From: Candidatus Uhrbacteria bacterium
GTDB lineage: Bacteria > Patescibacteriota > Patescibacteriia > JACQRZ01
Assembly (NCBI GenBank): GCA_016186045.1
Contig: JACPMJ010000007.1
Coordinates: 1-57,322, forward strand
Reading direction: 5' to 3'
DNA length: 57,322 bases
Shown here in pieces: positions 10,154 through 45,540 of the stretch; position 1 is the stretch's first letter, and each line of letters starts with the position of its first letter. The notes under the pieces are model-generated. The model saw only the letters and a program-made list of their open reading frames with translations. It searched no databases and was not told where the DNA came from. The translations under genes were made by a program, and so were the position numbers.

Positions 10154-13100
10154 TTATGATTTCTTTGAATTTTCTTTTTTGTTTATCAAATTACCTTGAG
10201 CTTGGGTAAGAGATCCTAATTGCTCAATTTTTTCTCCTTCACTCAACGCGGTATTCTTCAAAATTCCCGCTTGTTGTTGGTTGAGGGTTTTTAATTTCTT
10301 GTCAGTATTATCGCTCACACCGGATGGTTTCGCGTCTGCCGTTTGTTTTGATTCTCCTTTTGGCGAGTCTGCTGAAGATTTTACGGATGCACCTCCGCCG
10401 GATGATCCGCCAACACTGCCACCTCCGCCACCCCTGCCTGATGGCCCACTACTCACAGCTCGAGCGCCACCGGACGTCTCCTCGCCTCCGCCGGAAAGCC
10501 CACCCAATTCTCGCGCGATTTTTTGTCTTTCTCTGTCAATGGCTCTGGTCTCCTCTGTCCGCTTGTGCGGATCTTGGATAGCTGTCGCCTCCTTGTATAC
10601 TCTATCAAGATCACTCATTTGAGATTGAAGCTCTTGCGTACGCGCTTCTTTTTCTACTTGAGCGTTTTGCGCCTGTCGTTCCGGTCGCCGCTGTGCCTCG
10701 CGCTCCTGAAGCTGTTTCTCAAGACCTTGTATTTCTTTTTGAACATCTTGGAGGCTTCTTCCCCCTGCGTTTTTCTCGCCACGCATCATCGCATCCTTCA
10801 TACTGTTCAGCCGAGAAATCCGTACACCCAACGGCAAATTTTTCGTATCCTCACCCTGCGGAGGAGGCTGTTGGCCCGTATCTTGCATCGTTACTTCTAT
10901 GGTTTCTTTTTGTGCACCTTTGTCACCGGTACCAAACCTGCGATCATCAGATAATTTCTGTTTTTCTTCTTGGATACGCGCTTTCAAATCTTCTATGGTA
11001 TGCCCTTTTGCTTTTTCCTGATCAGTCAAATTCTTTGCGGTTGCTCCCAATGTTACCTTGCGAAGCTCATATCCTTCAGCATTCGGATCCAAACCAAGAA
11101 GCGCCGCCTCCGCCTGTTTGCGCCCTTTTTGAATTCGTTTCTGGTCTTCCTGTTCCTTTGTAAGGTCATTTTCCATTCGTGAAATTTTTCCTGCGTGCGA
11201 TGGCTGGGCAGGCTGAGGCGATAGTTTTGCGGCATGTGCCTCCATTTCCTTGCCAATTTCTTCTTTCACTTCCTTTTCGTTCTTTTCCTTCGCCGGTGGT
11301 GACTCTGGTTTTTGCGCAACTCCACCTCCCATGGGAGTAAGTGTCCTAAAGGGCTTTTGATCAGTCGGCCTCCCTCCGCCAAGCGTCTCCTCCGCCATAC
11401 TCTTGAGATCCTCAAGCTCACTCTTTTCTTTTACCGGCGGTGGCTCTGGTTTTTTAAATAATTCATGCAGTCCTTTTGACTTATCCCACTCCTCCTTTGC
11501 GCCTTTAGCTAGAGAGGTATCTCCTATGGCTTCCCCCGCTTTTTTCGCAAGAACTCCTATATCAGTTGCTTTGTTAATCTCTCCAAATTTTTTCTTTCCT
11601 CCTTCTATCGCTTTGTCAGCTTTGACTGCGGCGGTTCCTACTCCCACCATCACACGGTTTCCAGTAGCCTGTGCTCCTCTTGATAGAGCTCCCTTAGCAG
11701 CAGAAAATGCTTCTCCCGGATTTTTGTATACTGATCCAACCTTTGTTGCCGTAGCCTGAGCTCCGGCTGTAAATTTGCCTCCCACGGTCCGTGCGGCTCC
11801 AAGAGCGGCTTGCATTCCTGTGCTCGCCTTCTCTTTTGCGGCTCCACCTAATTTTCCTAAACCCTCCGCGCCAGCCTTGCCAAGCGCGGGAACATCTGTC
11901 TTTGCCATGGTACCAGCCAGCCGCACAGCGCCCTTTCCGGCTGACTTCAATGCTCCAATACCCGCCCGCCCAGCGGCTCCGGCAATTCCCGGAACTGCTT
12001 TCGCACTGCCTTTTGCAAAACTGCCAATCGCGGCTCCTGCCTTTCCTGCGCCTGTTGCGCCGGCTCGCGCAGCAGCTGCTATACCTGCAGGAGCCGACTT
12101 CGCGAGCTGGACCGCCCCGGCGCCAACCTTTTTCGCGCCTGCTGCACCGGCTTTTGCTCCGGCACCAGCAAGCTTAAATGGCATTGCCGCCGTGCCTGCT
12201 CCTATACTTTTCATTTTATTCATAGCACCTGCGGCTATGCCACCACCTACACTTGAGAGCTCCTGTGCCGCAACAAGGCTTGCCAATAGCATGACAATAC
12301 CCAGGATAAACCCCGCAATGCCCGGCGCAGTGCCGGCTATGGACGTTCCCACAGAAAGCGCTCCTGATTTAGGATCTTTGGAATCTGGCCACTCCTGGTC
12401 CCCAAGCTCCCGATGAATCTGGACATCTGACGCGTCTTTTTTACCCTCAGCCGCATTTTGCGTCACCGCCAGAGAAATCCAAAGAAAAAATGCCAATACC
12501 GGACCCAAAATAACATAATTTGCAAAATTCTTCCACCACCTTCCTGAAAGCTGTTGCGCCATATCTATGGGAACCGCGGAAAGAAAAAACGCAAACGGCG
12601 AAAGCGTCACCAAAAACCAAATCGCAACAATGCGGATAATAAGCTGGATTGCGATAACCGCGAGCACTACCAACGCAATAAAAGAATAAATAAGCCCGAA
12701 AATCAAAGAGATAAAAATAGTGTTATAATTAACGTCACTACCTTCGGTCATCTTCAAGACATTTTGCACGCCAAGCATCGCCATGAAATTTCCCGGGCCT
12801 GCGGCAGAAAACGCACCTACGAACGTCATCATCACCACTTGCGCGAAATCTATGAGTAATCCACAGATGGTACGAGAAAAATTGATGAGAATCGCCATGA
12901 GAATAAGCTTGGGAAGTGTCCGTGAATAATGGTATTTTTCCTGCTGTAAAATGGTGCCTGCCGCAATAGCCAAAAGCACAAGCACAAAAAACATATTGCA
13001 GATATCCCGCACAATACCCCAGCCTTTTGCAACGGCAGTGGAAAAAATAAAGTCATTATAGCTGGCAACTGCTATAATGATATATATGAGAATGGTAATG

Positions 13101-13300
13101 CACTTGCCGACCAATCCAAGAATCAAATTGACCAAATATCCAAATCCTTGTGCGAGTTTTTCTCCAACAGTGCCGATAGCAGTACCCTGGGCATACGCAT
13201 GTTCGGCAAATCCAAATACGCCAATGCCGACTCCCATACAAATGAGCAATAAAAAAAGCACTGCTCTTTTCTTGCGCGCAATTCGTTCACATAGTGCCAT
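10154..13300 (-). CDS. Extended VirB6/TrbL-like polytopic membrane protein
   Basis: GWGIVRDICNMFFVLVLL...A.LINFS, RIVAIWFL..LSP.AF and WWKNF..Y...GP TM core, then a Gly/Ala-rich region and a coiled-coil tail. Confidence 0.75.
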   Translation of the reverse strand: MALCERIARKKRAVLFLLLICMGVGIGVFGFAEHAYAQGTAIGTVGEKLAQGFGYLVNLILGLVGKCITILIYIIIAVASYNDFIFSTAVAKGWGIVRDICNMFFVLVLLAIAAGTILQQEKYHYSRTLPKLILMAILINFSRTICGLLIDFAQVVMMTFVGAFSAAGPGNFMAMLGVQNVLKMTEGSDVNYNTIFISLIFGLIYSFIALVVLAVIAIQLIIRIVAIWFLVTLSPFAFFLSAVPIDMAQQLSGRWWKNFANYVILGPVLAFFLWISLAVTQNAAEGKKDASDVQIHRELGDQEWPDSKDPKSGALSVGTSIAGTAPGIAGFILGIVMLLASLVAAQELSSVGGGIAAGAMNKMKSIGAGTAAMPFKLAGAGAKAGAAGAKKVGAGAVQLAKSAPAGIAAAARAGATGAGKAGAAIGSFAKGSAKAVPGIAGAAGRAGIGALKSAGKGAVRLAGTMAKTDVPALGKAGAEGLGKLGGAAKEKASTGMQAALGAARTVGGKFTAGAQATATKVGSVYKNPGEAFSAAKGALSRGAQATGNRVMVGVGTAAVKADKAIEGGKKKFGEINKATDIGVLAKKAGEAIGDTSLAKGAKEEWDKSKGLHELFKKPEPPPVKEKSELEDLKSMAEETLGGGRPTDQKPFRTLTPMGGGVAQKPESPPAKEKNEKEVKEEIGKEMEAHAAKLSPQPAQPSHAGKISRMENDLTKEQEDQKRIQKGRKQAEAALLGLDPNAEGYELRKVTLGATAKNLTDQEKAKGHTIEDLKARIQEEKQKLSDDRRFGTGDKGAQKETIEVTMQDTGQQPPPQGEDTKNLPLGVRISRLNSMKDAMMRGEKNAGGRSLQDVQKEIQGLEKQLQEREAQRRPERQAQNAQVEKEARTQELQSQMSDLDRVYKEATAIQDPHKRTEETRAIDRERQKIARELGGLSGGGEETSGGARAVSSGPSGRGGGGGSVGGSSGGGASVKSSADSPKGESKQTADAKPSGVSDNTDKKLKTLNQQQAGILKNTALSEGEKIEQLGSLTQAQGNLINKKENSKKS

Positions 13301-13360: not shown

Positions 13361-13405
13361 AATAAAAAAAGACAGAAAACTCTTTTTCTGTCTGGTTGAT
13401 GTCAT
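13361..13405 (-). terminator. Repeat A copy 1 (intrinsic terminator)
   Basis: agacagaaaa-loop-ttttctgtct hairpin followed by a T-run on the minus strand. Confidence 0.75.
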
Positions 13406-13461: not shown

Positions 13462-15096
13462 CTATGGGCCGATGAGCGCCTCCTCGCTCACACGGTACAG
13501 CAGATGGCTGTTTGGAGTCCCGGCAAGTATGCCGCCATCATCTGTCAGGAGAAGGTAGAACTTCCGCTCTGACGCAGAGTACACCACGTACTCTATTTTC
13601 CATGCCTGGCCGCAACGTCCCCATTCGCTACAACTGAAACTTACATTCTGATGGTCCGAGTCCGCGAAGTACTGGAGAATCTTATTGCTACTACCGGTCT
13701 GGCGCCAATCTTTGAGATTGTACTGCCAGCGAGCAATGCTCAGATTCTGCATGAAATAGTTGTCGTCGCATACGGATATGGTCCACGGACCGTCGAACAT
13801 GGTCTCGCGACACGCTGAATTTGCGGTATTCCACGAGAAATACCATAGTGCGGTATTAGTTGCTGCCATGCGGGAGTGGAGGAGGTCATACAAGAATCCC
13901 GGCGTGGCGAAGTATTCCGGAATGGCGATGGATGTTTCTCCCGAGGGAATGGTCCCCGCGCGAATCTGCATGGTTTGCGCGGTGGTGTCCCAGCCTTCCA
14001 AGAGCTTTTTCTCCGGATATGTACTCCAGGCATTGAAAAAGTATCTTGGGCCGTTACTGTATCTCTTGCTGTAATCAACGGGGGCGTACTTTATGCAAGA
14101 GCCATACTGGTGAATATACAGGTATTCATAGCCTGGTTCGACGAATTCGAATGACTCCCCGCTATCCGCGATTTTGAACACGCCGGCATGGAGACTGCCA
14201 CTTGATCTGCACATGCGATCATTATCTGAAAATCCAAAGCCATCCATGTAGGTCCAATAGAACGCTGAGATATTGAACCGTATTTCGCCCGTCTGGGAAT
14301 AGGCGATACCGTCTATTCTTGTTTTACCAAGATACGGATTACTGCCTATATAGTACCCCTTATCGCCGGGATACAGAGGTATGTACGGCCCCGCCCCTTT
14401 GATCTCCGTGAGTCTTTCCAAGCCGGGAACGCCGTTTACTTGCGTAAACAACGGTGGCGGAGTGGGCGTGGGTGTAGGTGTTGGAGCGGGCGTAGGCGTG
14501 GGTGTGGGTATGGGTGTGGGTGTTGGAGCGGGTGTAGGAGTTTTACTTGCTATCAACCGCATGGTGACGTTGATAGCCTTATTCTCCATTACCTCCACAG
14601 ACTGGCTCGCCTGTGCCACTACTCTAGTGACATCGTCTTCCGCCCTAACAAGTAGAATAATGGGGCCTACTGGCAGAAATTCACGCGGGGATTTGGGCAG
14701 CGTGACAGAACTTGTCGCAGCATTTTCCACATCACCTGCCGGATAAGCAAATGCTTGAGCGATCTCTGTACCATCAAGCTTGAGCGCCATAAACCTGATC
14801 CACATGGTATTAGATGGAATGACCTGAACACCACGACGTGCCGGCCAACGGATGGTCAGTGTCGCGTGCCGTGCCCATTTCGTAGGATCATCCGCGACAA
14901 TTTTGTTCGCTGATGCACTATCGTCGGAATGTACCGGAACGGACGAGACATCCAAAGAGAGCTTATTGGCTACGGATGGGCTAGACGACTCCTTTGTATT
15001 GAGAGGCACTGTGGAACAGGCGATAAGGAAGCTGGCGAAGATCCACATTGAACCGAGTTGTATCCTCTTGTGCATACTCATCTCCTTACTCCACAA
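13462..15096 (-). CDS. Putative lipoprotein with Pro-Thr stalk; C-terminal domain paralogous to 16455 and 21535
   Basis: Lipobox FLIAC, PTPTP repeat, GLERL motif and LYRVSEEAL terminus. Likely start near 15075 after aaggag. Confidence 0.75.
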   Translation of the reverse strand: MWSKEMSMHKRIQLGSMWIFASFLIACSTVPLNTKESSSPSVANKLSLDVSSVPVHSDDSASANKIVADDPTKWARHATLTIRWPARRGVQVIPSNTMWIRFMALKLDGTEIAQAFAYPAGDVENAATSSVTLPKSPREFLPVGPIILLVRAEDDVTRVVAQASQSVEVMENKAINVTMRLIASKTPTPAPTPTPIPTPTPTPAPTPTPTPTPPPLFTQVNGVPGLERLTEIKGAGPYIPLYPGDKGYYIGSNPYLGKTRIDGIAYSQTGEIRFNISAFYWTYMDGFGFSDNDRMCRSSGSLHAGVFKIADSGESFEFVEPGYEYLYIHQYGSCIKYAPVDYSKRYSNGPRYFFNAWSTYPEKKLLEGWDTTAQTMQIRAGTIPSGETSIAIPEYFATPGFLYDLLHSRMAATNTALWYFSWNTANSACRETMFDGPWTISVCDDNYFMQNLSIARWQYNLKDWRQTGSSNKILQYFADSDHQNVSFSCSEWGRCGQAWKIEYVVYSASERKFYLLLTDDGGILAGTPNSHLLYRVSEEALIGP

Positions 15097-15733
15097 TCAC
15101 GTTCACTTTTCCACCGGATTTGACAGTCACGGACAGAGAGGATGATGCCTTTCCATCCAATGAAGCTGCGATGATAGCGGCAACGCCTTCTGATTGCGAC
15201 CGCACAACGCCATTCTGCACCGAAGCTATCCCCGGATCTGAAGATGACCATGTTACTGAGGAGTTTGTCGAGGTATCTGACATGGTCACAATCGCATTGA
15301 GCTTGACTTCCACTGGATTCAGTTGCCCGTCTGGATTTTGAGCGCTTACATGAATCGTCGTAGACGACTCAGCTCGTATTTGCACTTTGACGGCATATGA
15401 CGCAGGCGTAGGAGTTGGCGTGGGGATTGGCGTTGATACAGGCGTCGCCGTTTGAACGGGCGTTGTTGACGGAGATGAGGTTTGTCCCGCAGACTGGCTG
15501 GGGCTGGGCGTGATATACACTGAAGCGCTCACGCTTGGCGAAACGCTTGGAGATGAGGAGACGTCTGTATTTGGTGCCGGAGACTGGTCTTGCGAACCTG
15601 TAGGAAGCGGCGATTCTGCTGGCTTTGCAGAAGAGCTCGTTTGTGCAGGATCCGATCCATTGAGTGGGGGTATGAGCGCTACACAGCCCGCAAGGGCTAT
15701 GAACGCCAAGGGAAGCGCAGATATCCGCTTCAT
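15086..15733 (-). CDS. Putative lipoprotein with Ser/Pro/Thr stalk and bacterial Ig-like (Big_2) domain
   Basis: Lipobox LAGC. VTWSSSDPGIASV.NGVV...EG.A.I.A.S.DG is the Big_2 signature. SD aaggagga upstream. Confidence 0.8.
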   Translation of the reverse strand: MKRISALPLAFIALAGCVALIPPLNGSDPAQTSSSAKPAESPLPTGSQDQSPAPNTDVSSSPSVSPSVSASVYITPSPSQSAGQTSSPSTTPVQTATPVSTPIPTPTPTPASYAVKVQIRAESSTTIHVSAQNPDGQLNPVEVKLNAIVTMSDTSTNSSVTWSSSDPGIASVQNGVVRSQSEGVAAIIAASLDGKASSSLSVTVKSGGKVNVIVE

Positions 15734-15764
15734 GGGCTTGTATTCCTCCTTTTCTTTATTTTTT

Positions 15765-15820
15765 AAGGTACTGCAAAGGGAATTCTACAACACACAAAAA
15801 ACCGTGTCAAGGAGACACGG
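15765..15820 (-). promoter_or_regulatory. Repeat B copy 1 (diverged): sigma70 promoter TTGACA-N17-TAGAAT with hairpin and GTACCTT motif
   Basis: -35 at 15805-15810, -10 at 15782-15787, hairpin ccgtgtc/gacacgg. Confidence 0.75.
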
Positions 15821-15843
15821 CCATCCTTATTTTGTTTGACGAA

Positions 15844-16284
15844 TCAATTCGTCACTAAATTGAGTTTCATTTTGATAAACTGAATTTCCTGTTCCTGTTT
15901 GTCAACTTGCAACTGAATACGTTTCAACCACTCAATGGCAAACGCATGATCTTCTTCAATACGCTTCATGCGAGTCGCAATCTCCTCCAGTATTCCCAAC
16001 ATGTGCCGATAATCAGTTTTCGTCACCATCGTCTCTTCAATACGTGACAACCGCTCTCCATGATCAACGGCGGTTCCAATAAGCGAATCAAGTTTCTTAT
16101 CATGATCGTCGAGACGAGATTCTATCTTGTCAAACCGCGCGTCATGCTCTGCGAACTTCGCATCCATCTTGTCAAACCGCGCGTCATGCTCTGCGAACTT
16201 CGCATCCATCTTATCAAACCGCGCGTCAATCTTACCAAACAGTTGGTCATGATCCTCAAGTTTTTTAAAAATTTTGTCTTCCAT
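15844..16284 (-). CDS. Coiled-coil protein with internal tandem repeats
   Basis: HDARFDKMDAKFAE repeats encoded by a 42-bp tandem repeat (16124-16228). Start placed at MEDKIF. Confidence 0.7.
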   Translation of the reverse strand: MEDKIFKKLEDHDQLFGKIDARFDKMDAKFAEHDARFDKMDAKFAEHDARFDKIESRLDDHDKKLDSLIGTAVDHGERLSRIEETMVTKTDYRHMLGILEEIATRMKRIEEDHAFAIEWLKRIQLQVDKQEQEIQFIKMKLNLVTN

Positions 16285-16352
16285 ATATTCTTCAGTGATA
16301 TATCTCACCCATTCAGTATACTCTCTCAAAAAGGACGGTCAATAGTGGAAAA

Positions 16353-16398
16353 AATAAAAAGACAGAAAAACGCTGTTTTCTGTCTGGATTGGTGTCAT
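16353..16398 (-). terminator. Repeat A copy 2
   Basis: aataaaaagacagaaaaacgctgttttctgtctggattggtgtcat. Confidence 0.8.
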
Positions 16399-16454
16399 CC
16401 CAGAATGACAGTTTTTAGACAGTCTGAGGCGGACTCCCTCGCAATGACAATGAC

Positions 16455-17558
16455 TTATGGAACGAGCGCCTCCTCGCTGATGCGGTAAAGTCTATCTCCA
16501 TAAGCCTTTACCGACGTCAATATGTAGAATTTTTTTTCACTCTGTGAGTATACGAAGTGGTAGACGACCGCTGGGCCATAGCTACTGCCGAAAGACTTAA
16601 AGTACTCAACAATATTCTTACCGACCACTTCCTTCTCACCCGTTTCGTGAACGCGGAAAATGGAGGTACGGGGATCGCCAGCTATCCGAACAGATGCACT
16701 TGTCCTACCAATGAAGTAGGCGGTGGTACCGGTAAATGCCGTCCGCTCCCGCACAACGGTCAGCGCACGCTCATTCTCACAGGTCGCATCCACGCATGGA
16801 GCCTTTCCATAGTCTGGCCCGTCATCGTACGTTTTATCATCATCCAAACCAAAGATGTCCGCACTGGCGACATCTGACAGCTTGAGCGAGCCGGTGTTCT
16901 TGGTCCAGACGCTTGTGTTGAAAGAAATTTCTTTCTTCGCGACATCCACGCTCTTCACTACCCACGGTGCTACGGAAACACTTGCGGCTTCCGTGAGTTT
17001 GGAAAAGGCGAAGTCCCGCCTGGGATACTCTCCATAGAAAGTCTTTCCTGAATCCGGTTGTCCTGGGATCACTGTTTTTTTCTGACCCAGTGCGATGTAT
17101 TCAAATTCATCCTTGACACTCGTTTTCTTGAAAATCGCGAAATTTCTAAACTGCACTAGTTCAGTATCGCACGTTGAACATAGAAGCGGAGTGGATCCAT
17201 GAGGAATAATCGTCTGGATGTACATATCTCCGGACGCGGAAAGGGCAAGCCCCTCTTGACCTGGGTTATTTTCTTGTCTCTTGCCAAGATATCCACCAAT
17301 TCCCGATACTCTCTCCAGCCCGGCAACACCCTCTACCGGCACAAAATTTATCTTCAGGATATTATCCGGAAGCGGAGTCGGCACTGGCGTAGGAGTGGGT
17401 GACGGGGTAGGGGTAGGCACCGGGGTCGGAGATTGCGCCACCGTAGGCGCGGAAGTTGCGGTTTGCGCGGTGGTGTCCGCTTTTTGCGTTTGTTGCGGCA
17501 CTGATGCCACACAACCGGCGATGGCGACGAGCGCGAGAGGGAGGCTCTTCTTGAACAT
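16455..17558 (-). CDS. Putative lipoprotein with Pro-Thr stalk (paralogue of 21535-22623)
   Basis: MFKKSLPLALVAIAGC lipobox, PTP repeats, Cys pairs, LYRISEEALVP end. Confidence 0.8.
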   Translation of the reverse strand: MFKKSLPLALVAIAGCVASVPQQTQKADTTAQTATSAPTVAQSPTPVPTPTPSPTPTPVPTPLPDNILKINFVPVEGVAGLERVSGIGGYLGKRQENNPGQEGLALSASGDMYIQTIIPHGSTPLLCSTCDTELVQFRNFAIFKKTSVKDEFEYIALGQKKTVIPGQPDSGKTFYGEYPRRDFAFSKLTEAASVSVAPWVVKSVDVAKKEISFNTSVWTKNTGSLKLSDVASADIFGLDDDKTYDDGPDYGKAPCVDATCENERALTVVRERTAFTGTTAYFIGRTSASVRIAGDPRTSIFRVHETGEKEVVGKNIVEYFKSFGSSYGPAVVYHFVYSQSEKKFYILTSVKAYGDRLYRISEEALVP

Positions 17559-17631
17559 GATGGGGTACCCTTTCCTTTCTTTTCTGATGATTGTCATTCC
17601 AGACTCGATCTGGAATCCAGTAATTTATAGC

Positions 17632-17705
17632 CTTTTTGTGAAGGTACGGACTTACAAAAAGAATCCTACACACAAAAAGAGAGGGTGTCAATGGGACACC
17701 CTCTT
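17632..17705 (-). promoter_or_regulatory. Repeat B copy 2: terminator hairpin / promoter TTGACA-N17-TAGGAT plus GTACCTTCACAA
   Basis: -35 at 17686-17691 inside the hairpin gagggtgtc/gacaccctc; -10 at 17663-17668. Confidence 0.8.
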
Positions 17706-17942
17706 CAAATGGCGCTCTGCCAAAAATTGAGTTGTGATTTTTAATTTTTTCGGTACGCGCAATTCATGAATGATAGGAGCCACTGTTTGCCAATCATCTT
17801 CTGTAAAATATCGCCAAAGCATACGGGAAATATATCTGCTATAATATTGCCGTTTCTCGGATTCATTGTGCCATGGCCGTTTGCAAAGCAACCCATCCCA
17901 ATTTGTAAGCGCCTCAATATCGCGCGATGTATAGCGTATCAT
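17688..17942 (-). CDS. Small hypothetical protein coupled to the AbiEii-like gene
   Basis: 84 aa, ATGA overlap with the upstream gene. Its stop TGA lies within the TTGACA of repeat B. Confidence 0.55.
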   Translation of the reverse strand: MIRYTSRDIEALTNWDGLLCKRPWHNESEKRQYYSRYISRMLWRYFTEDDWQTVAPIIHELRVPKKLKITTQFLAERHLKRVSH

Positions 17943-18392
17943 AGTGATACATGTTCAATAAGATATGCAATCTGACGTTCCACACACGCGCGATTTTCTT
18001 CCGCATCGCGAAGAAAAATATGCAGAGGAATGGTAAACGACGTTTTTTTATCTAAAAGTTCTGTTAATAATTTTTCTTCAGTGATAGCACCTAGTCCGAA
18101 TTTTTCTTCCGCAAATTCTTCCAAGTCTTTTAGCAGCCATCCTTGTTGTTTTGTAAGAAACGCAAGATCTATGTAGTCTTTTATCTCGTCACGCGAACAA
18201 AGAGCTGAAGCCTTACTCGCCGCGCTATCCCTCAACCCCGCCGTTCGAATATTTCCAAATAATACAAACTCGTCAATATTTCTATTACCGTCCGCGAAAG
18301 GTATCACAAAACAAGGGATCGCGCTCAAATATACGCACTATCTCCCTCTGTTCGCCGGTTAAATCAATAAACTCTTTTAAATCATGCACCAT
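17939..18392 (-). pseudogene. AbiEii-family nucleotidyltransferase toxin, internally deleted
   Basis: The C-half has KASAL.SR.E.KDY.DL. An upstream frame reads MVHDLKEFIDLTGEQREIVRIFERDPLFCDTF and then stops. The GGT / R.S.D.D catalytic segment is missing. Confidence 0.65.
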
Positions 18393-18431
18393 ACACATTG
18401 ATTATACCAAACGCATACGCTTCGTCAAAAA

Positions 18432-18479
18432 AATAAAAAAGACAGAAAAAACGCTGTTTTCTGTCTGGATTAGTGTCAT
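18432..18479 (-). terminator. Repeat A copy 3
   Basis: Same hairpin and T-run as the other copies. Confidence 0.8.
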
Positions 18480-18676
18480 CTCTTCTTTGTCATTCCAAAT
18501 CCCCGATCGTAGTCGAGGACAGGCCCGATCTGGAATCCAGAATTTTTTATTGATGCCAAGCAAAGCCTCATCGCGAAGTCCTGTCCGGTCAGACTGTCTA
18601 AGATCCTCGGGTCAAGCCCAAGCCTGTCCTCGGATTTGATCCGAGGAATGACATAAAAGGCAGGCTAAGAATGACA
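18474..18676. repeat. Cluster of nested REP-like palindromes filling an empty module
   Basis: tgtcattcc...ggaatccag and ...ggaatgaca units with inner gaggacaggc/gcctgtcctc elements. Confidence 0.75.
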
Positions 18677-18697
18677 GTAATCACACTATTTTACGAG

Positions 18698-18756
18698 CTT
18701 TTTGTGAAGGTACGGACTTTAAAAAGGATTTTACACACAAAAAGAGAGGGTGTCAA
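18698..18756 (-). promoter_or_regulatory. Repeat B copy 3: TTGACA-N17-TAAAAT
   Basis: -35 at 18751-18756 overlaps the ATPase stop codon; -10 at 18728-18733. Confidence 0.75.
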
Positions 18757-19913
18757 TATACCATAAGCGGATTTCCGGATTCAATGAGCTGTACATCTGT
18801 TTCGTATGATTTTGAGAATGACGTTTTCTTAAATGTCTTTTTTTTCCATTTTATTTCATACGCGCTTAGCGCGTCTCCCTCTTTTACGATCAAATCAACT
18901 TCTCCGCCAAAACGAGAACGCCAAAAATAAAGACTTCGTGTTCCGCCGCGCAAGAGATTATCTTTTGCCCATTCCGAGATCACCCAATTTTCCCATAACG
19001 CCCCGATATCGGAACGCAATGGACTCTGAGAAAATTCCTTAAGAATAGCATTTCGGACTCCCGTATCCCAAAAATAAATTTTTTTGCTTTTTGATATCTC
19101 TTTTCGCGGATTTGTGCTAAAAGCAGGCAAACAAAAAATAACATACGTTTGCTCAAGAAGCTCTATATATCGCTCTACAGTCTGTCGAGAAATACCAAGA
19201 GCTATGGATAGCTCATGTACTGAAACCTCCGATCCTATTTGATGCGCAAGAAGCATAAGTAAGCGATGTAATGAGACAGGAGTCTTTACGAGTCCAATTT
19301 GCAAAATATCTTTCAAGAGATAATCAGATGAAAGTTGAATAAGAAATGTTTCTTTTTCATGGGTTGTTATTGCTTCCGGATAGCTCCCGAAAACTATAGA
19401 TTGCATAAGAATTTCATGCACCTGACCTGAGAAATATTTCAATATATGATCATCAGTAAACGTATCGCTATACCATTCTTGAGCAGCGAGTATTTCACGG
19501 AATGCGAGCTGGGGAAGAAATAATTTTTCATTTCGCCCTGCTAAACTTTCTGCCGCTTGATTGAGAAGATTCAAACTTGAAGATCCAAGAAGAAATATTT
19601 TTACCTGGGTACTCGCGTCGTACCATCCTTTTATAATCCGAGCTGCTTCAGGAAGACGTTGTGCTTCATCCAGTACAAAAATCTTAGGGTTACCAAATAA
19701 CAGAATGGCATGAGTAGGATTTAATGAGGAGACAGAAAGAAATCGCTGGCGATCAACCTCAACATCCATATTCAGAAATATCACTTTTTCATCCTTAAAA
19801 ACGTGTTGAATAAGCGTTGTTTTGCCAACCTGCCGCGCACCTACAATAATCCCAATCTTAGATGTATGTAGCATTTTTAAGAGAATATTTTCTGCTTTTC
19901 TTTTTATAAACAT
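18753..19913 (-). CDS. AAA+ ATPase, AAA_14 + DUF4143 family
   Basis: GARQVGKTT, LDEAQ, LGSSS, GSYP, KIYFWDTGVRN, ENWV and EVD...EIK (PD-(D/E)xK-like tail). Confidence 0.9.
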   Translation of the reverse strand: MFIKRKAENILLKMLHTSKIGIIVGARQVGKTTLIQHVFKDEKVIFLNMDVEVDRQRFLSVSSLNPTHAILLFGNPKIFVLDEAQRLPEAARIIKGWYDASTQVKIFLLGSSSLNLLNQAAESLAGRNEKLFLPQLAFREILAAQEWYSDTFTDDHILKYFSGQVHEILMQSIVFGSYPEAITTHEKETFLIQLSSDYLLKDILQIGLVKTPVSLHRLLMLLAHQIGSEVSVHELSIALGISRQTVERYIELLEQTYVIFCLPAFSTNPRKEISKSKKIYFWDTGVRNAILKEFSQSPLRSDIGALWENWVISEWAKDNLLRGGTRSLYFWRSRFGGEVDLIVKEGDALSAYEIKWKKKTFKKTSFSKSYETDVQLIESGNPLMVY

Positions 19914-19997
19914 ACGATTATTCGCATTATAAATAATATTTTATATTATTAAGTATACAATATAGCCTGCTATATTGTCAAATATATTGACTAAAAG

Positions 19998-20056
19998 TAA
20001 TAAAAAAGACAAAAAAACGCTGTTTTCTGTCTGAGGATGTCAATGGGACACCCTCT
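19998..20056 (-). repeat. Repeat A copy 4 fused directly to a remnant of repeat B (collapsed module)
   Basis: taataaaaaagacaaaaaaacgctgttttctgtctg joined to aggatgtcaatgggacaccctct. Confidence 0.75.
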
Positions 20057-20097
20057 CTCCATACTATTCTCACTATATATTTAATAGACGAAACCCT

Positions 20098-21228
20098 TTA
20101 AAGAATCTTTTGTAACGATATGCACCGTATTCTTCCTATCTGCCTCAAAATATGAGGGGGTTTTCTTCTCTTTTTTACCGCGTTCCACTTGCATTCATAC
20201 AAACTCACTCGGGACCCTTGCTCTTCTATGAGATCAATCTCTGCTCCGTCATATGTCCGCCAAAAATATTGCAAAGCAGAAATTCCGTGATACGCGCGAT
20301 ACTTCATCCGTTCGGCAATAATAAAATTCTCCCAGAGTCCGCCCATGTCCGTACGCTCACCTGAAAAATTAAAATTATTTATAATCACGTTCCGAATGCC
20401 GGTATCATAAAAGTATATCTTTTTCAGTTTTGTGATTTCCCGCCGTTTATTTTTTGTATACGGAGGAAGACGAAAAATAATGTAATTTTTTTCCAGTAAA
20501 TCTATATAGCGCTCTACGGTTTTCACATCTATGCCACACGTACGAGAAAGTTCATTCATTGAGTATTCCGATCCTATTTGAAGACCGAGCGCTTTGAGGA
20601 GAGAAAAAAGCACTTGCGGATTCTTCACTTGTTGAAATTCAAAAATGTCCTTATACAGAGCGCTGGATGCCAACTCACGCAAAAGTCTCTCTTTTGAATC
20701 AAAGGATGCCTGAGATACAATCTCAGGATATGATCCGAATATCATAAGATGTTCTATTTTTTTTCGCTGTGAGATCGGATCAAGCTCGGAAAATATTTCT
20801 TCTAACGAAAGAGGATAGAGAATATGCGTGAATTTCCTTCCCGTCAACGATTCTGATGTGGCGTCAAGAAGGTTAATACTTGATGACCCCGTCACGATAA
20901 TCTGTTTTTTCTTCTTATAATAATCCACAAGTATCTTGACTGTCTGTCCGATATCAGCTACTTTCTGACCTTCATCTATAAAAACAATATCATAATCGTT
21001 TACCAATCCTTTTAAAAATAAGCTATTCTTGCCCGCAAGAAGATCCCTGTCATGCGGATCATCACAATTAAATGACAGGATCTTTTTATTCTTAATCGTT
21101 GAGGCATGAAAAATGTCTTGCATGAGCGTAGTCTTGCCTACTTGTCTCGCGCCAATGAGGATGATCACTTTTCCAAGAAAAAAATCCTTTATGATAGTAT
21201 TCCTTAGTTTTCTGCGATAGTGAGTCAT
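20098..21228 (-). CDS. AAA+ ATPase, AAA_14 + DUF4143 family (last codons probably frameshifted)
   Basis: GARQVGKTT, IDEGQ, TGSSS, KIYFYDTGIRN, EID..E...ECK. Confidence 0.9.
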   Translation of the reverse strand: MTHYRRKLRNTIIKDFFLGKVIILIGARQVGKTTLMQDIFHASTIKNKKILSFNCDDPHDRDLLAGKNSLFLKGLVNDYDIVFIDEGQKVADIGQTVKILVDYYKKKKQIIVTGSSSINLLDATSESLTGRKFTHILYPLSLEEIFSELDPISQRKKIEHLMIFGSYPEIVSQASFDSKERLLRELASSALYKDIFEFQQVKNPQVLFSLLKALGLQIGSEYSMNELSRTCGIDVKTVERYIDLLEKNYIIFRLPPYTKNKRREITKLKKIYFYDTGIRNVIINNFNFSGERTDMGGLWENFIIAERMKYRAYHGISALQYFWRTYDGAEIDLIEEQGSRVSLYECKWNAVKKRRKPPHILRQIGRIRCISLQKIL

Positions 21229-21288
21229 AAGCGTAAATTATGGATTACACTCCTTATTTTACACATATTCTTTTTCTTGTCAACCGCG

Positions 21289-21336
21289 TAATAAAAAAGA
21301 CAGAAAAACGCTGTTTTCTGTCTGGACTGGTGTCAT
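21289..21336 (-). terminator. Repeat A copy 5
   Basis: Identical over about 60 bp to copy 7, including ttgtcaaccgcg. Confidence 0.8.
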
Positions 21337-21534
21337 TTCTTCTTTGTCATTCCGAGCGGTCAGCGAGGAATCCCGACGTTAAAAACATGATACCAACGGG
21401 ATCCTTCACGGAGTTTATCCCAGATTGCGATCTGGGGTTCAGGATGACAGAAGTGAGTTTTTAGACGGTCTGAGATCCCGTTGATATAAGTAAAAAGCGT
21501 CGGGATTCTTCGAGCTTTACCCTCAGAATGACAA

Positions 21535-22623
21535 TTACGGAACGAGCGCCTCCTCGCTGATGCGGTAGAGTAAGAAGCCAGTATTCCTCGCGAGTATGTA
21601 GAACTTATGATCTGTCCGTGAGTACACAAAGTTGTGCACCACCTGTACATACGAAGATTTCGTGAAGTATGCGGCAACGCTTTTGCCCACTATCTCTTTT
21701 GCGCCGCTCTCACTGACGCGGAAGATAGTCGTACTTGTTCCTATATCATCCCTGCCAATGAAGTATGCGATTGCACCGGTGAACGCTGTCCGCTCTCGCA
21801 CCACAGAAAGCGCACGATCATCCTCGCATTCCGGAGTATTGCACGATCCTTCCCATGGAAGAATTCTAGCATAAAGACTGGAGAGCAGCACATCTCTGCC
21901 GAAAAAATCTCCGCTCGCGACATCCGAAAGCACGAGGGGCCCCGTATTCTTTGGCCAGACCGCGGTGTCGAAGCTGACCTTCTTACTAGCACGGTCCACG
22001 CTCTTCACCACCCATGGCGCCATGGAGACACTCGCGGCTTCACTCAATTTTGAGAAGGTGAAGTCCTCTCTCTCATAGAGGTAGCCTATTTTCCCGGGAT
22101 CTGAAGAGTTTGGTCCCCAAATGCCTTTTCCTGACATTGCGACGTATTCAAATTCGTCCTCGACGGTTGTCTTCTTAAAGACCGCATAATTGGGGTCATT
22201 GCCTGAACGAGATATATTCATATCACAGGCAGGACAGAGAACAGGAATAGAATTAGTAGGAATCGATACCTGAATATACATATCCCCTGATGCGGAGCTC
22301 GCAATGCCGAAGACCCTAAATTGTGAATATCCATAATTCACAGGAGAAGCGCCGAAAGTTCCGTTATCTATTAGTTCGATTTCGGGCGGCGCGGGCTGAT
22401 CTGGCCAGAATTTCAACTTGAGAATCGATTTCGGAAGCGGAGTGGGTACTGGCGTGGGAGTTGGCTTGGGGGTGGGAGTAGGCGACGGGGTCGGAGATTG
22501 CACCGCCGTTGGCGCGGAAGTTGCGGTTTGCGCGGTGGTGTCCGCTTTTTGCGTTTGTTGCGGCACCGATGCCACACAACCGGCGATGGCGACGAGCGCG
22601 AGAGGGAGGCTCTTCTTGAACAT
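21535..22623 (-). CDS. Putative lipoprotein with Pro-Thr stalk (paralogue of 16455-17558)
   Basis: Same signal peptide/lipobox (IAGC) and C-terminus LYRISEEALVP, with a divergent middle. Confidence 0.8.
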   Translation of the reverse strand: MFKKSLPLALVAIAGCVASVPQQTQKADTTAQTATSAPTAVQSPTPSPTPTPKPTPTPVPTPLPKSILKLKFWPDQPAPPEIELIDNGTFGASPVNYGYSQFRVFGIASSASGDMYIQVSIPTNSIPVLCPACDMNISRSGNDPNYAVFKKTTVEDEFEYVAMSGKGIWGPNSSDPGKIGYLYEREDFTFSKLSEAASVSMAPWVVKSVDRASKKVSFDTAVWPKNTGPLVLSDVASGDFFGRDVLLSSLYARILPWEGSCNTPECEDDRALSVVRERTAFTGAIAYFIGRDDIGTSTTIFRVSESGAKEIVGKSVAAYFTKSSYVQVVHNFVYSRTDHKFYILARNTGFLLYRISEEALVP

Positions 22624-22695
22624 GATGGGGTACCTTTCCTTTCTTTTCTGATGATTGTCATTCCAGACTCGATCTGGAATCCAGTAATTTATAGC

Positions 22696-22767
22696 CTTTT
22701 TGTGAAGGTACGGACTTATAAAAAGAATCCTACAGCTAAAAAGAGAGGGTGTCAATGGGATGCCCTC
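22696..22767 (-). promoter_or_regulatory. Repeat B copy 5: TTGACA-N17-TAGGAT plus GTACCTTCACAA
   Basis: -35 at 22750-22755, -10 at 22727-22732. Nearly identical to copy 2. Confidence 0.8.
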
Positions 22768-22794
22768 GCAACACTCCCTCAATACACACTTCAT

Positions 22795-23217
22795 CTATTT
22801 TTTCAGTTGCCGAAAAATAAATACGATATATTTTGTAAAATCTTTCACATTTGAGCGGAGAAGCGAAAGGAAGAGATGGGTGTCTACACTCTCATATCGG
22901 TGCACTATGCGATTTCGCAAACCAACAATCGGCGCCATTTTCTCCGCAAAATTTTTAGGCAGTATGCCGCGCTCCGCAAGCGTAAAAAATGTGCTTTGAT
23001 AATCTTCAGAGATAGGAAGATTTAGTTCCCGGATAAAATACGTATTGATGTCAATAATAGTATCAACAATAAGCTGAAGAAGCCTTTCCGCAATATGCAA
23101 TTTCCCTGAATCAGATTTGATCTGCTTATCTGAACACGCCAAAAGATCTTCCAATTCTTTGAGGTATTTGTCAATTTCAGTAAGTTTTTTTGTGACAAAC
23201 GCTTTTTCAAACCCCAT
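22795..23217 (-). CDS. hepT: HEPN (DUF86/HepT) RNase toxin, type VII TA
   Basis: RNRIVHRY fits the RX4HXY motif; ERLLQ motif also present. Overlaps the MNT gene. Confidence 0.85.
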   Translation of the reverse strand: MGFEKAFVTKKLTEIDKYLKELEDLLACSDKQIKSDSGKLHIAERLLQLIVDTIIDINTYFIRELNLPISEDYQSTFFTLAERGILPKNFAEKMAPIVGLRNRIVHRYESVDTHLFLSLLRSNVKDFTKYIVFIFRQLKK

Positions 23218-23605
23218 ATTTTTTTGTTAAACGCAAGTGTTGATCCCGATAGAGCGGCGCCGCTTCAACGAATTGCTTAAACGCATATCCACGCATATGC
23301 GCAAAAATAAATTTTTGAGCTTCATACAATACTTTTCCGTCTTTAAAAATCGCATACAGTAACAACGGCGATGTTTTCTTGAGATTCACAATGTCAATGG
23401 CATCATTTGCAAAAAACAACGAGAGATCATATGCCAGCGCGGTTTCTTGCGCAAGAGAAAGTGTTTTCTTTGATTGAAATGCAATATCAATATCGCTCGA
23501 TGGCAGCGCCTTCCCTGTTGCGCGTGAACCAAAAAGCACAAGCAAGCTCAGCGAATACTTCCTTGCAATTTCGGTGATAGTTTTTTTCTTCGATATTTTT
23601 TTCAT
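23207..23605 (-). CDS. mntA: Minimal nucleotidyltransferase antitoxin, type VII TA
   Basis: LFGS-X10-DID motif. Start at MKKISKK after SD gaaggag. Confidence 0.85.
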   Translation of the reverse strand: MKKISKKKTITEIARKYSLSLLVLFGSRATGKALPSSDIDIAFQSKKTLSLAQETALAYDLSLFFANDAIDIVNLKKTSPLLLYAIFKDGKVLYEAQKFIFAHMRGYAFKQFVEAAPLYRDQHLRLTKKYGV

Positions 23606-23673
23606 ATATTTTTCTCCTTCTATCATATCATGAACACCTATCATCGGCAACCATGTCAAAATAATAAACCACG

Positions 23674-23721
23674 TAATAAAAAAGACAGAAAAACGCTGTT
23701 TTCTGTCTGGACTGGTGTCAT
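23674..23721 (-). terminator. Repeat A copy 6
   Basis: Same hairpin and T-run as the other copies. Confidence 0.8.
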
Positions 23722-23841: not shown

Positions 23842-23897
23842 ACTTATAAAAAGAATCCATCACACAAAAAGAGAGGATGTCAAGTGGACACCCTCTT
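23842..23897 (-). promoter_or_regulatory. Repeat B copy 6 (degenerate -10 ATGGAT; GTACCTT motif lost)
   Basis: acttataaaaagaatccatcacacaaaaagagaggatgtcaagtggacaccctc. Confidence 0.7.
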
Positions 23898-23898
23898 C

Positions 23899-25134
23899 TT
23901 ACTTCAGTAAGAAAGGCACAAAATACAATGGATATGCTTTCACTTCTGAAGATATTCTTGGACTATCTTGCCAATATACTCCGAAACATGACGATTGAGG
24001 ATGTAATTTTTGAAATAAGGAAAAATCATAGCGATGCGAGCTCTTTTTCTTAATTTCAACGGCAATCAACCTCTCTTGGAACTGCATGACAAAATCTATT
24101 TCTCTCCCAGTTTTTGTCCGCCAAAATTGAGGTTTAATTTCCCGCTTTATACATTCTTGAAACAACGCGTTCTCCAAAAGCGCTCCATTATCGCCTCGCG
24201 CGTCCAATGAACGAAAATCATTTACCACGCTATTTCTTAATCCGGTATCAAAAAAGTACATTTTGGGATTTTTAACAAGCTCTTTACGCTTATTTGTAAA
24301 ATAGGGCCGAACAAAAGAACAGATGAATGTTTTTTCTAAAAAATTTAATTGCTTTTTAAGCGTTATATATGAATATTCCGAGATAGTACATAATTCCGTG
24401 TAGTCAATCAAATTCCCAATCTGCAATCCAAGCGCCTTGATGAGTTTTTCAAATTTATAATCGTCAATAAGTCCGAGTAGATCCCGTACATCCCGTAAAA
24501 AATATGTACTATAGATATTCTTGAGAACTTCACGTTTTTCATCTAATGACTCTGACGCGAGAACGCGCGGATAACCGCCAAATAACGTATATTCCTCAAA
24601 TAATTTTGAAAAGGTGTATTGTATCTCGTCTGATAGTGAAAGAAGCTTCATTTGCGAAACGCGACGACCATACGAAAGATATGTTTCAGAAAGATGCGGC
24701 GCTTTCCACGTAAGAAACTCTTCAAAATCAAATGGATATAAATTAAAAATAAAAATACGTCCGACGAGATATTTCACCGCTTGCACCGTAAGATCAATAC
24801 TTGATGATCCTGTAACAATAATTTTAAACTGATACTGGTCGTATATATATTTTAATTTTTTTCCCCCTTCGCTCGCATACTGAAATTCATCAATAAAAAG
24901 ATACTTTGATTTTCCATAGATACTGGCAAAATTTTTGATATCTCTTTCAAAAAGGGAGAGCGTATCTCTGTCTTCAAAACTGATCATTTGCGCGGATGAT
25001 AATCTTTTAGCAAGCTCTTTTATAAGCGTCGTTTTACCGCATTGCCGCGGACCAATAATTGCCAAAATCTCAGGAGCTTCCAAATATCGTAAAATAGTGT
25101 TCTCTAATTTCCTTTTAATATACATATAAAACAA
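23899..25134 (-). CDS. AAA+ ATPase, AAA_14 + DUF4143 family
   Basis: GPRQCGKTT, IDEFQ, TGSSS, GGYP, PKMYFFDTGLRN, EIDF...VEIK. Confidence 0.9.
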   Translation of the reverse strand: MFYMYIKRKLENTILRYLEAPEILAIIGPRQCGKTTLIKELAKRLSSAQMISFEDRDTLSLFERDIKNFASIYGKSKYLFIDEFQYASEGGKKLKYIYDQYQFKIIVTGSSSIDLTVQAVKYLVGRIFIFNLYPFDFEEFLTWKAPHLSETYLSYGRRVSQMKLLSLSDEIQYTFSKLFEEYTLFGGYPRVLASESLDEKREVLKNIYSTYFLRDVRDLLGLIDDYKFEKLIKALGLQIGNLIDYTELCTISEYSYITLKKQLNFLEKTFICSFVRPYFTNKRKELVKNPKMYFFDTGLRNSVVNDFRSLDARGDNGALLENALFQECIKREIKPQFWRTKTGREIDFVMQFQERLIAVEIKKKSSHRYDFSLFQKLHPQSSCFGVYWQDSPRISSEVKAYPLYFVPFLLK

Positions 25135-25198: not shown

Positions 25199-25246
25199 TA
25201 ATAAAAAAGACAGAAAAACGCTGTTTTCTGTCTGGACTGGTGTCAT
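25199..25246 (-). terminator. Repeat A copy 7
   Basis: Same hairpin and T-run as the other copies. Confidence 0.8.
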
Positions 25247-25375: not shown

Positions 25376-25449
25376 TTGTGAAGGTACGAACTTATAAAAA
25401 GAATCCACCACACAAAAAAAGACCGTGTCAAGAGAGACGACGGTCTTTT
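25376..25449 (-). promoter_or_regulatory. Repeat B copy 7 (terminator of the giant gene; degenerate -10 GTGGAT)
   Basis: Hairpin aaaagaccgtgtc/gacgacggtctttt containing TTGACA; gtaccttcacaa retained. Confidence 0.7.
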
Positions 25450-45354: not shown

Positions 45355-45438
45355 TGCCCCTAAGAGGATTCGAACCTCTAAGGGATTTCTCCCACATGGT
45401 TCTGAACCATGCGCGTATGCCAATTCCGCCATAGGGGC
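45355..45438 (-). tRNA. tRNA-Leu (anticodon CAG)
   Basis: GCCCCTA acceptor stem, CATGG-TTCAGAA-CCATG anticodon arm, variable arm, GTTCGAATC T-loop. Confidence 0.92.
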
Positions 45439-45540
45439 ATTGATAAGGAGGGCAAGTTTCCGCCATAGGGGCATTGATAAGGAGGGCAAGTTTCCGCCAT
45501 AGGGGCATTGATAAGGAGGGCAAGTTTCCGCCATAGGGGC
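45424..45540. repeat. 34-bp tandem repeat (3 full copies plus 1 partial) containing the tRNA-Leu 5' end
   Basis: ttccgccataggggcattgataaggagggcaagt at 45424, 45458 and 45492; partial copy at 45526. Confidence 0.9.

What the first reader, a model, noticed from the sequence alone, without database searches (positions are those of the whole stretch)
13462..22623. Lipoprotein family with near-identical ends and hypervariable middles
Seen: genes 16455-17558 and 21535-22623 are almost identical in DNA over the promoter, leader, signal peptide and stalk (about 17410-17705 vs 22480-22767) and over the last codons (gaacgagcgcctcctcgctgatgcggta). In between they alternate conserved blocks (SASGDMYIQ, FSKL.EAASVS.APWVVKSVD, RAL.VVRERTAFTG) with unrelated loops. 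The 544-aa gene shares GLER and LYR.SEEAL. Inference: a repeat beta-sheet (propeller-like) head on a Pro-Thr stalk with diversified loops, consistent with host-attachment or phage-receptor variation by segmental recombination.
Basis: partly seen in the sequence, partly recalled or inferred. Interest (0 to 1): 0.7.

Follow-up and report, generated by a model that had tools for sequence, protein, structure and literature searches.

The report
Variable-head lipoprotein array beside Patescibacteria T4SS
A tiny groundwater bacterium has a row of predicted surface-lipoprotein genes beside its secretion-system genes whose front and back ends are nearly identical while the middles are old and very different, likely because ordinary recombination keeps the ends alike and exchanges whole heads that would bind different host-cell surfaces.

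Summary
The two genes are 97% identical over promoter and leader and share an exact 29-nt end, but align at only 54% across the head. Silent sites differ at 2/37 leader codons against 79/145 head codons, the level seen between orthologs of two species. So the ends were made alike recently and the heads are old. A second species repeats the pattern (10/134 against 62/133), and another genus has a shared leader on unrelated heads. The genes sit in a seven-unit promoter/terminator array inside the Patescibacteria VirB4 locus; four lipoprotein slots are empty. The predicted head has three propeller-like blades plus an alpha/beta insert, and by topology the variable loops fall on one face. Not supported: loop-by-loop segmental shuffling (p=0.19), positive selection, present-day population variation, or dedicated machinery (DGR, integron, Vpma-type switch). 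Best reading: accessory stalked binding proteins, diversified by whole-head exchange or end conversion through RecA. Toxin immunity and passive paralogy remain open. The scan noted similar arrays in other Patescibacteria genomes before.

The parts
25476..35204 (-). Giant 3242-aa Cys-rich predicted surface protein; upstream flank of the variable site
   Evidence: weak CBM_4_9; conserved C-terminal domain in 13 of 13 giants
25390..25446 (-). Repeat A1 (hairpin over a -35 box, -10 degenerate); empty lipoprotein slot filled with REP-like palindromes
25201..25235 (-). Repeat B1, terminator-like hairpin
23899..25134 (-). Cargo: AAA_14-DUF4143 ATPase (PADLOC PDC-S01-like)
23842..23898 (-). Repeat A2 (-10 degenerate); empty slot
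23676..23710 (-). Repeat B2
22795..23659 (-). Cargo: nucleotidyltransferase (Polbeta) plus HepT-like HEPN pair
22714..22770 (-). Repeat A3: hairpin plus sigma70-type promoter-like site of LpB (-35 at 22755, -10 ends 22727)
21535..22623 (-). LpB, 362-aa predicted lipoprotein: leader, Pro-Thr stalk, head from about residue 63
21291..21325 (-). Repeat B3, preceded by REP-like palindromes
20098..21228 (-). Cargo: second AAA_14-DUF4143 ATPase
20000..20058 (-). Left half of repeat A joined directly to repeat B; empty slot, read as a deletion scar
18753..19913 (-). Cargo: third AAA_14-DUF4143 ATPase (30-40% identical to the other two)
18433..18757 (-). Repeat A5 (promoter-like site intact), REP-like elements and repeat B5; empty slot whose end joins an LpB-type upstream REP end to an LpB-type downstream tail
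17688..18328 (-). Cargo: AbiEii-like remnant (weak hit) and an 84-aa ORF
17650..17706 (-). Repeat A6: hairpin plus promoter-like site of LpA (-35 at 17691)
16455..17558 (-). LpA, 367-aa predicted lipoprotein; head 16458-17372 modelled
16354..16387 (-). Repeat B6
15844..16329 (-). Cargo: small coiled-coil protein with 21-nt repeats
15769..15825 (-). Repeat A7, promoter-like site ahead of LpD-LpC; same variant as A1
15086..15733 (-). LpD, 215-aa predicted lipoprotein with related leader, Ser/Pro/Thr stalk and a Big_2-like Ig domain (just under the Pfam cut-off) in place of the head
13462..15075 (-). LpC, 537-aa predicted lipoprotein: N-domain shared with lipoproteins on contigs C15 and C32, Pro-Thr stalk, distant homolog of the head
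13361..13395 (-). Repeat B7 (variant)
10154..13300 (-). VirB6/TrbL-like membrane protein; downstream flank. No Pfam hit itself; its ortholog hits TrbL weakly (E 1e-4, under the cut-off)

Best explanation
This is an accessory array of predicted membrane-anchored lipoproteins inside the conserved Patescibacteria VirB4 locus, in which old, divergent heads sit between recently shared 5' and 3' DNA ends, likely kept alike and reassorted by ordinary RecA recombination, and the heads likely bind variable surfaces of host cells. Shown: the shared ends, the saturated silent sites in the head, the seven-unit repeat structure and its recurrence in relatives. Predicted: lipid anchor, extended stalk, and a head of three propeller-like blades plus an alpha/beta insert with long variable loops on one face. 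Inferred: units multiply by unequal crossing-over at the repeats; the ends are homogenised by gene conversion, or a whole head from the population pool is swapped in between the two arms; genes are lost by deletion between flanking repeats. Inferred with least support: the ligand is a host surface polymer or protein. My split: about 0.8 for the recombination part, about 0.45-0.5 for the binding role.
For: Silent differences among same-residue codons: LpA/LpB leader 2/37, head 79/145, tail 1/9; second species (L009) leader plus stalk 10/134, head 62/133, tail 0/10; control orthologs between the two species 49-51%. In L009 the downstream arm runs on for about 300 nt through terminator B into the next gene. 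In genome G004 two lipoproteins at the same site share promoter, leader (74% over 89 aa) and terminator but have no alignable heads. LpB is closer to a head from another sample (61%) than to LpA (53%); the five closest heads form an unresolved star. RecA and ComEC are in the genome; natural competence is shown for Saccharibacteria (PMC10633639, passages). All 3 filled slots keep a -10 box; 3 of 4 empty slots have lost it. Model pLDDT 81, pTM 0.84; the top fold matches are beta-propellers. Inferred top-face loops have mean identity 0.19 and vary in length, against 0.49 for bottom turns and 0.50 for strands. The same leader/stalk platform carries other distal domains in this genome: Ig-like (LpD) and, through the N-domain shared with LpC, a hydrolase. 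Known Patescibacteria host recognition uses glycan-binding adhesins (10.64898/2026.10.06.756255, abstract).
Against: No ligand, host or expression data. Fold similarity is weak (best Z 7.6, rmsd 5.0 over 191 residues; none of 48,161 chains reaches Z 8) and shows no function. Long variable top loops are general in propellers (recalled), so the one-face pattern is not specific to adhesins. The face was assigned from secondary structure without coordinates, and three of five bottom turns are themselves only 0.26-0.35 conserved. Positive selection is not shown: overall dN/dS is about 0.36/1.09, and no LpA/LpB window has pN above pS. No head variants were seen in four public runs, and the L009-type head is unchanged in three assemblies. 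8 of 11 family genomes with both flanks assembled have no lipoprotein here, so the genes are dispensable. The adhesins shown so far in Patescibacteria are pilus proteins, not lipoproteins.
Confidence: 0.5

Rival explanations
1. The lipoproteins are immunity or decoy proteins against toxins of hosts or competitors (or decoys for phage), collected in tandem like streptococcal TipC or staphylococcal TilA/Lpl.
For: tipC genes encode lipoproteins with conserved start and end blocks, a variable centre and recombination between the blocks (PMC9484751, passages). Tandem DUF576 lipoproteins proved to be lipase immunity (PMC10730906, passages). Hosts attack epibionts through Esx (10.64898/2026.09.08.750141, abstract and passages). 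The other cargo is defence-like: three PDC-S01-like ATPases, a HEPN/nucleotidyltransferase pair, an AbiEii-like remnant. The genome encodes a lipoprotein with a PGAP1-like hydrolase that shares LpC's N-domain.
Against: No cognate toxin in the locus: the giant protein ends in the same conserved domain in 13 of 13 genomes, with or without lipoproteins, and no copies of its 3' end lie in either array. No Pfam, NCBIfam or PADLOC hit for the lipoproteins. Long Pro-Thr stalks suggest display away from the membrane (inference).
Confidence: 0.22
2. Ordinary old paralogs of an accessory surface protein: the core stays under purifying selection, loops drift, and the still-similar ends are converted passively with no benefit from variety.
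For: dN/dS about 0.3 with no clear positive selection; no mosaic signal in the heads; conserved strands alternating with variable loops is the usual pattern of diverged beta-sheet proteins; four of seven slots are empty.
Against: The shared-leader, different-head design recurs in three lineages at this site, once with unrelated heads, which drift cannot produce. The boundary of identity falls at the stalk/head junction in both species.
Confidence: 0.2
3. A site-specific cassette or phase-variation system (integron-like or Mycoplasma Vpma/Vsp-like) in which repeats A and B are recombinase targets.
For: Repeat B occurs 5 times near-exactly and twice as variants, only in this 12 kb of the 928-kb genome. 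Unrelated cargo genes lie between B and A, and two of them stop inside repeat A. The genome has two tyrosine and two large serine recombinases.
Against: All units face one way and each filled slot has its own promoter-like site. No recombinase gene on this contig; no integron integrase over the cut-off. A and B are explained as promoter/terminator elements. No joint at A or B with long sides in public contigs.
Confidence: 0.07
4. Diversity-generating retroelement mutagenesis makes the variable middles.
For: The genome has one reverse transcriptase (contig C3).
Against: No template copy of any head in the assembly, none near the RT; only 103 of 352 head mismatches have A in LpA and 85 have A in LpB; indels are frequent.
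Confidence: 0.01

Closest known systems
Tandem T7SS immunity lipoproteins: streptococcal TipC, staphylococcal TilA/Lpl (DUF576), and the esaG cluster (PMC9484751, PMC10730906; passages read)
   Same: Tandem paralogs beside a secretion locus; conserved blocks at the start and end including the downstream intergenic region; variable centre; gain and loss by homologous recombination; lipoprotein signal (TipC, TilA).
   Different: No sequence or family match; no cognate toxin found; long Pro-Thr stalk; each gene has its own promoter-like site and terminator; unrelated cargo genes are interleaved; no internal DNA homology block.
Mycoplasma variable lipoprotein loci vpma/vsp/vsa (PMC2268961; passages read)
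   Same: Clustered surface lipoproteins with a shared 5' region and different mature parts in a small-genome, host-dependent bacterium.
   Different: No single promoter, no opposed orientations, no adjacent Xer-type recombinase, so no on/off switch is implied.
Patescibacteria T4SS locus (VirB4, TrsD-like, PrgI/VirB3, VirB6; PMC12102498, parts 2-3 of 7 and passages read)
   Same: The array lies inside this locus: VirB4 3983-5869, PrgI 6626-7075, VirB6-like 10154-13300, ComF nearby.
   Different: The paper reports no adhesins such as PrgB and, in what I read, no lipoprotein array; the array is accessory.
Beta-propeller proteins (teneurin NHL domain, sialidases, WD40) as fold neighbours
   Same: Four-stranded blades with velcro-type closure predicted; best Z 7.6.
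   Different: Only three regular blades predicted, the rest helical; rmsd 4-6; no Asp-box in 11 of 11 sequences.
Gracilibacteria hypervariable PTD-repeat surface protein (10.1101/595074; passages read)
   Same: CPR surface protein with a Pro-Thr-rich segment, proposed for host association.
   Different: There the variation is synonymous, cell-to-cell and within the repeat; here the globular head differs between paralogs and no cell-to-cell variation was seen.

Membership tests
Bacterial lipoprotein (Sec/SPII) | Basic N-region, hydrophobic stretch and lipobox cysteine | tested here: met
   LpA/LpB Cys16 after IAG; found by a home-made pattern scan that gave 12 hits genome-wide, several false. 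SignalP was not available.
Bacterial lipoprotein (Sec/SPII) | Lgt and LspA in the genome | tested here: met
   Both over the Pfam cut-off in G000; 16/16 and 14/16 family genomes
Bacterial lipoprotein (Sec/SPII) | Lipidation and surface display | not testable with these tools
   needs proteomics or labelling
Beta-propeller | Repeated four-stranded antiparallel blades | tested here: met
   three blades in the model's secondary structure; the top VIA matches are propeller proteins by their titles
Beta-propeller | Closed ring of 4-8 blades matching a known family | tested here: inconclusive
   best Z 7.6, rmsd 5.0, 191 aligned; Foldseek PDB no E<=0.001; residues 96-209 of the head are irregular or helical
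Sialidase / BNR propeller | Asp-box repeats and RIP motif at the N-terminal blade (motifs recalled) | tested here: not met
   0 of 11 with an Asp-box, 2 of 11 with an RIP string; no BNR Pfam hit
TipC/TilA-type tandem immunity lipoproteins | Sequence homology to these families | tested here: not met
   no Pfam, NCBIfam or PDB-sequence match
TipC/TilA-type tandem immunity lipoproteins | Conserved 5' and 3' blocks around a variable centre in tandem paralogs | tested here: met
TipC/TilA-type tandem immunity lipoproteins | Binds and neutralises a toxin | not testable with these tools
   no candidate toxin in the locus; no complex prediction was run
CDI/Rhs orphan toxin-immunity modules | Stored copies of the giant gene's 3' end paired with immunity genes; swappable C-terminus | tested here: not met
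   no tblastn hit of the giant protein in either array; conserved terminal domain in 13 of 13 giants
Mycoplasma Vpma/Vsp phase-variable loci | Single promoter reached by inversions | tested here: not met
   all genes co-oriented; promoter-like site at each filled slot
Mycoplasma Vpma/Vsp phase-variable loci | Adjacent tyrosine recombinase | tested here: not met
   tyrosine recombinases only on contigs C3 and C14
Integron / CALIN | Integron integrase | tested here: not met
   TIGR02249 under the cut-off; genome 92% complete
Integron / CALIN | attC sites | tested here: inconclusive
   no attC model was run; the repeats fit promoter and terminator patterns; Rfam gave only two chance-level hits
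Diversity-generating retroelement | Template repeat and adenine-specific mismatches | tested here: not met

The most novel reading that the evidence does not exclude
A host-range slot in the Patescibacteria T4SS operon: fixed promoter/leader/stalk and terminator arms let competent cells swap in whole binding heads, from one family with an unusual part-propeller fold or from unrelated families, out of a population-wide pool, so that the array records and sets which hosts an uncultured lineage can attach to.
Probability: 0.25. Interest if true: 0.72.

Novelty: new variant of a known kind. Interest (0 to 1): 0.42.

Why it matters
Hosts of most groundwater Patescibacteria are unknown, and the T4SS survey I read found no adhesins of the monoderm type in the group (PMC12102498). 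If these heads bind hosts, they are small soluble domains that can be expressed and used as probes to pull hosts out of groundwater samples. If they are immunity proteins, they would show epibionts defending against host toxins. Either way the head family is unclassified, with a confident model and no close solved structure. The genetic mechanism itself (tandem lipoproteins, concerted evolution of ends) is familiar, which limits the surprise.

Tried and rejected
Wider distribution: GTDB species scan, 0 of 65 pattern hits confirmed. 61 relatives searched with the full-length profile gave only stalk matches outside G000. The head profile hit 2 of 401 genomes of the class, G000 and G005, both already in the profile. 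The G005 protein resembles the family only at its C-terminus, and its homology is NOT independently shown (hhalign probability 0.3%). I left it in alignment A4, so its hits are circular. The G008 lipoprotein does not match either. The HMM search of 1.84 billion representatives gave 589 hits; only 150 were listed, most on the Pro-Thr stalk, and I read 8 sequences, so weak head homologs may be hidden. My early idea of a donor outside Patescibacteria found no support. ESM Atlas: feature hits under 0.9 and TM under 0.5, leads only. BFVD: one hit at E 7e-4 with TM 0.24. No REP-associated Y1 transposase found in this 92%-complete genome. No RNA holder listed. Joints in public contigs have short sides and lie in REP elements, so I treat them as repeats. 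Leader alleles that cross between LpA and LpB in single contigs (positions 17502, 17568) may be collapsed repeats. In L010 the second unit has the unit-2 leader start joined to the unit-1 head; this is real conversion or misassembly and I cannot tell which. No complex prediction was run. Literature searches (listings and abstract starts only) showed no description of this family or array; supplements were not read and may list these genes.
Full report
Setting. The window is contig C2 of a 928-kb, 92%-complete genome. It occurs in groundwater runs. A protein from a genome of the same family is labelled Candidatus Uhrbacteria, so this is a Patescibacteria lineage. The finding lies between a 3242-aa Cys-rich gene (25476-35204) and a VirB6-like gene (10154-13300), upstream of PrgI, VirB4 and ComF. 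The VirB6 label is weak: it rests on position and a sub-threshold TrbL hit in the ortholog. This is the Patescibacteria T4SS locus of PMC12102498 (parts 2-3 of 7 and passages read).

Observation. Confirmed. LpA (16455-17558) and LpB (21535-22623) are 97.2% identical over 17445-17696, 80.6% over the stalk, 53.5% of alignment columns over the head and 29/29 at the 3' end. LpC (13462-15075) is a distant homolog. LpD (15086-15733) has a related leader and stalk but an Ig-like domain. Contigs of four public runs of one study reproduce both heads without differences and link each to its leader; these runs may include the source sample.

What kind of variation. Among codons with the same residue, silent differences are 2/37 in the leader, 7/21 in the stalk, 79/145 in the head and 1/9 in the tail. 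Three orthologous neighbours compared with a second species (58-79% protein identity) give 49-51%. So the heads are as far apart as genes of two species, or saturated, even inside the conserved blocks, while the ends are recent. The longest exact match within the head is 14 nt. A site-compatibility permutation test on five heads (92 informative sites) gave p=0.19; it has little power, but it gives no support for loop shuffling. Overall dN is 0.36 and dS 1.09; no 20-codon LpA/LpB window has pN above pS, and one 18-codon window of the L009 pair does (0.63 against 0.48) in a poorly aligned loop. Positive selection is therefore not shown. Mismatches are not adenine-biased, and no template copy exists in the assembly or near the one RT gene, which rejects a DGR.

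The array. Two repeats occur only between 13.3 and 25.5 kb of the genome. Repeat A is a hairpin overlapping a TTGACA box; repeat B is a terminator-like hairpin (the promoter scan as a whole finds 29 sites against 23 in shuffles, so the case rests on the position and score of these sites). They define seven units: A, lipoprotein slot, B, own promoter, cargo gene. Three slots are filled (LpB; LpA; LpD plus LpC) and all keep a -10 box 17 nt after the -35. Four are empty, and three of these have lost the -10. One empty slot is a direct A/B junction. Another joins an LpB-type upstream REP end to an LpB-type downstream tail, the product expected from deletion between two short REP ends (inference). 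No lipoprotein remnant was found in the empty slots. Cargo: three AAA_14-DUF4143 ATPases only 30-40% alike, a HEPN/nucleotidyltransferase pair, an AbiEii-like remnant and a coiled-coil protein.

Relatives. A second species (L009-L011, three assemblies 99.7-99.96% alike) has, at the same site, three lipoproteins alternating with two coiled-coil genes and the same A and B elements. Its first two genes repeat the pattern: 10/134 silent differences in leader and stalk, 62/133 in the head, 0/10 in the tail, and a downstream arm of about 300 nt. Leaders are alike within each genome and saturated between genomes. I fetched the site from 14 of the 15 other family genomes; the fifteenth match lay at a contig start. 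Of 11 with both flanks, 3 have lipoprotein-like genes (lipobox judged by eye), 3 have other small genes and 5 have no ORF of 90 aa or more; 1 of the 3 truncated loci also has one. In G004 two lipoproteins share promoter, leader and terminator but have unalignable heads. The head family is small: ten sequences with supported homology, LpA, LpB, LpC, three from L009 and four from unplaced contigs. LpB is nearer to an outside head (61%) than to LpA (53%), but the tree leaves those five heads unresolved. In-place divergence with end conversion and import of whole heads therefore cannot be told apart; both are homologous recombination, and RecA and ComEC are present.

Structure. With 11 aligned rows (one of unproven homology) the LpA head models at pLDDT 81, pTM 0.84 (an earlier 5-row full-length model gave 71 and 0.71). 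The strands form three four-stranded blades, the last closed by an N-terminal strand; head residues 96-209 are hairpins and helices. The top fold matches are propellers but weak (best Z 7.6, rmsd 5.0, 191 aligned; none at Z 8; Foldseek nothing at E 0.001 in PDB). Positions are not independent, I drew the segments after seeing the alignment, and two rows are N-terminally truncated. No sialidase motifs.

Function. Lgt and LspA are present, so lipidation is plausible. A lipid anchor, a long stalk, interchangeable distal domains and one variable face fit a binding protein held away from the cell; host attachment is my leading guess. In Saccharibacteria the adhesins shown so far are pilus proteins that bind host wall glycans (10.64898/2026.10.06.756255, abstract only). 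The gene pattern fits tandem immunity lipoproteins just as well (tipC in PMC9484751, TilA in PMC10730906; passages), the neighbours are defence-like, and hosts do secrete anti-epibiont effectors (10.64898/2026.09.08.750141, abstract and passages). Against immunity, no toxin or orphan toxin tip is in the locus. A Vpma-type switch needs one promoter, inversions and an adjacent recombinase (PMC2268961, passages); none is met.

Novelty. Five literature searches showed no description of this family or array (listings only). Earlier notes of this scan describe similar lipoprotein arrays next to the giant gene in other Patescibacteria genomes and the seven modules of this same stretch; they are unchecked AI notes and not independent support. 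Verdict: a real feature, a new protein family and a new setting for a known kind of system; interest 0.42.

Noticed in passing
window 20170: Contigs of 3 of 4 public runs carry one more base here, so the stop of the 376-aa ATPase may be an assembly error; the gene would end near 20081.
   Followed up: partly
window 25476-35204 against L011:1368-9824: Identity of the giant protein falls from 55-72% in the first half to 34-44% in the last third, yet the terminal domain is conserved across 13 giants. A part around residues 910-1082 has a paralog on contig C15.
   Followed up: partly
G000:C32:15139-17808 and C15:766-2325: Two more lipoproteins share LpC's N-domain; one carries a PGAP1-like alpha/beta hydrolase, a candidate surface lipase.
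   Followed up: partly
G000:C3:30799-32043: A lone reverse transcriptase next to an ATPase-like and a vWA-like gene (both labels from motifs, recalled); a 62-nt repeat occurs at about 29197 and 30726. Possibly a retron-type or other defence RT.
   Followed up: no
whole genome: REP-like palindromes are abundant (94 and 81 copies of two 9-nt ends) although no Y1 transposase was found.
   Followed up: partly
family f1 genomes: Lgt in 16 of 16 and LspA in 14 of 16 genomes: this Patescibacteria family keeps lipoprotein processing.
   Followed up: yes
L010:7684-8949: The second unit has the unit-2 leader start joined to the unit-1 head, unlike L009; conversion or misassembly.
   Followed up: partly
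L023:6187-7873: In G008 the 5' end of the giant gene and the 3' end of the gene before it appear duplicated in tandem; possibly an assembly artefact.
   Followed up: no
window 45424-45540: Three exact 34-nt tandem repeats between the RNase J and ABC-substrate-binding genes.
   Followed up: no
window 42619-43128 and 15844-16329: Small coiled-coil genes built of 21-nt repeats; related ones lie on C10, C14 and C15, and small coiled-coil genes also sit at this hotspot in other genomes.
   Followed up: no
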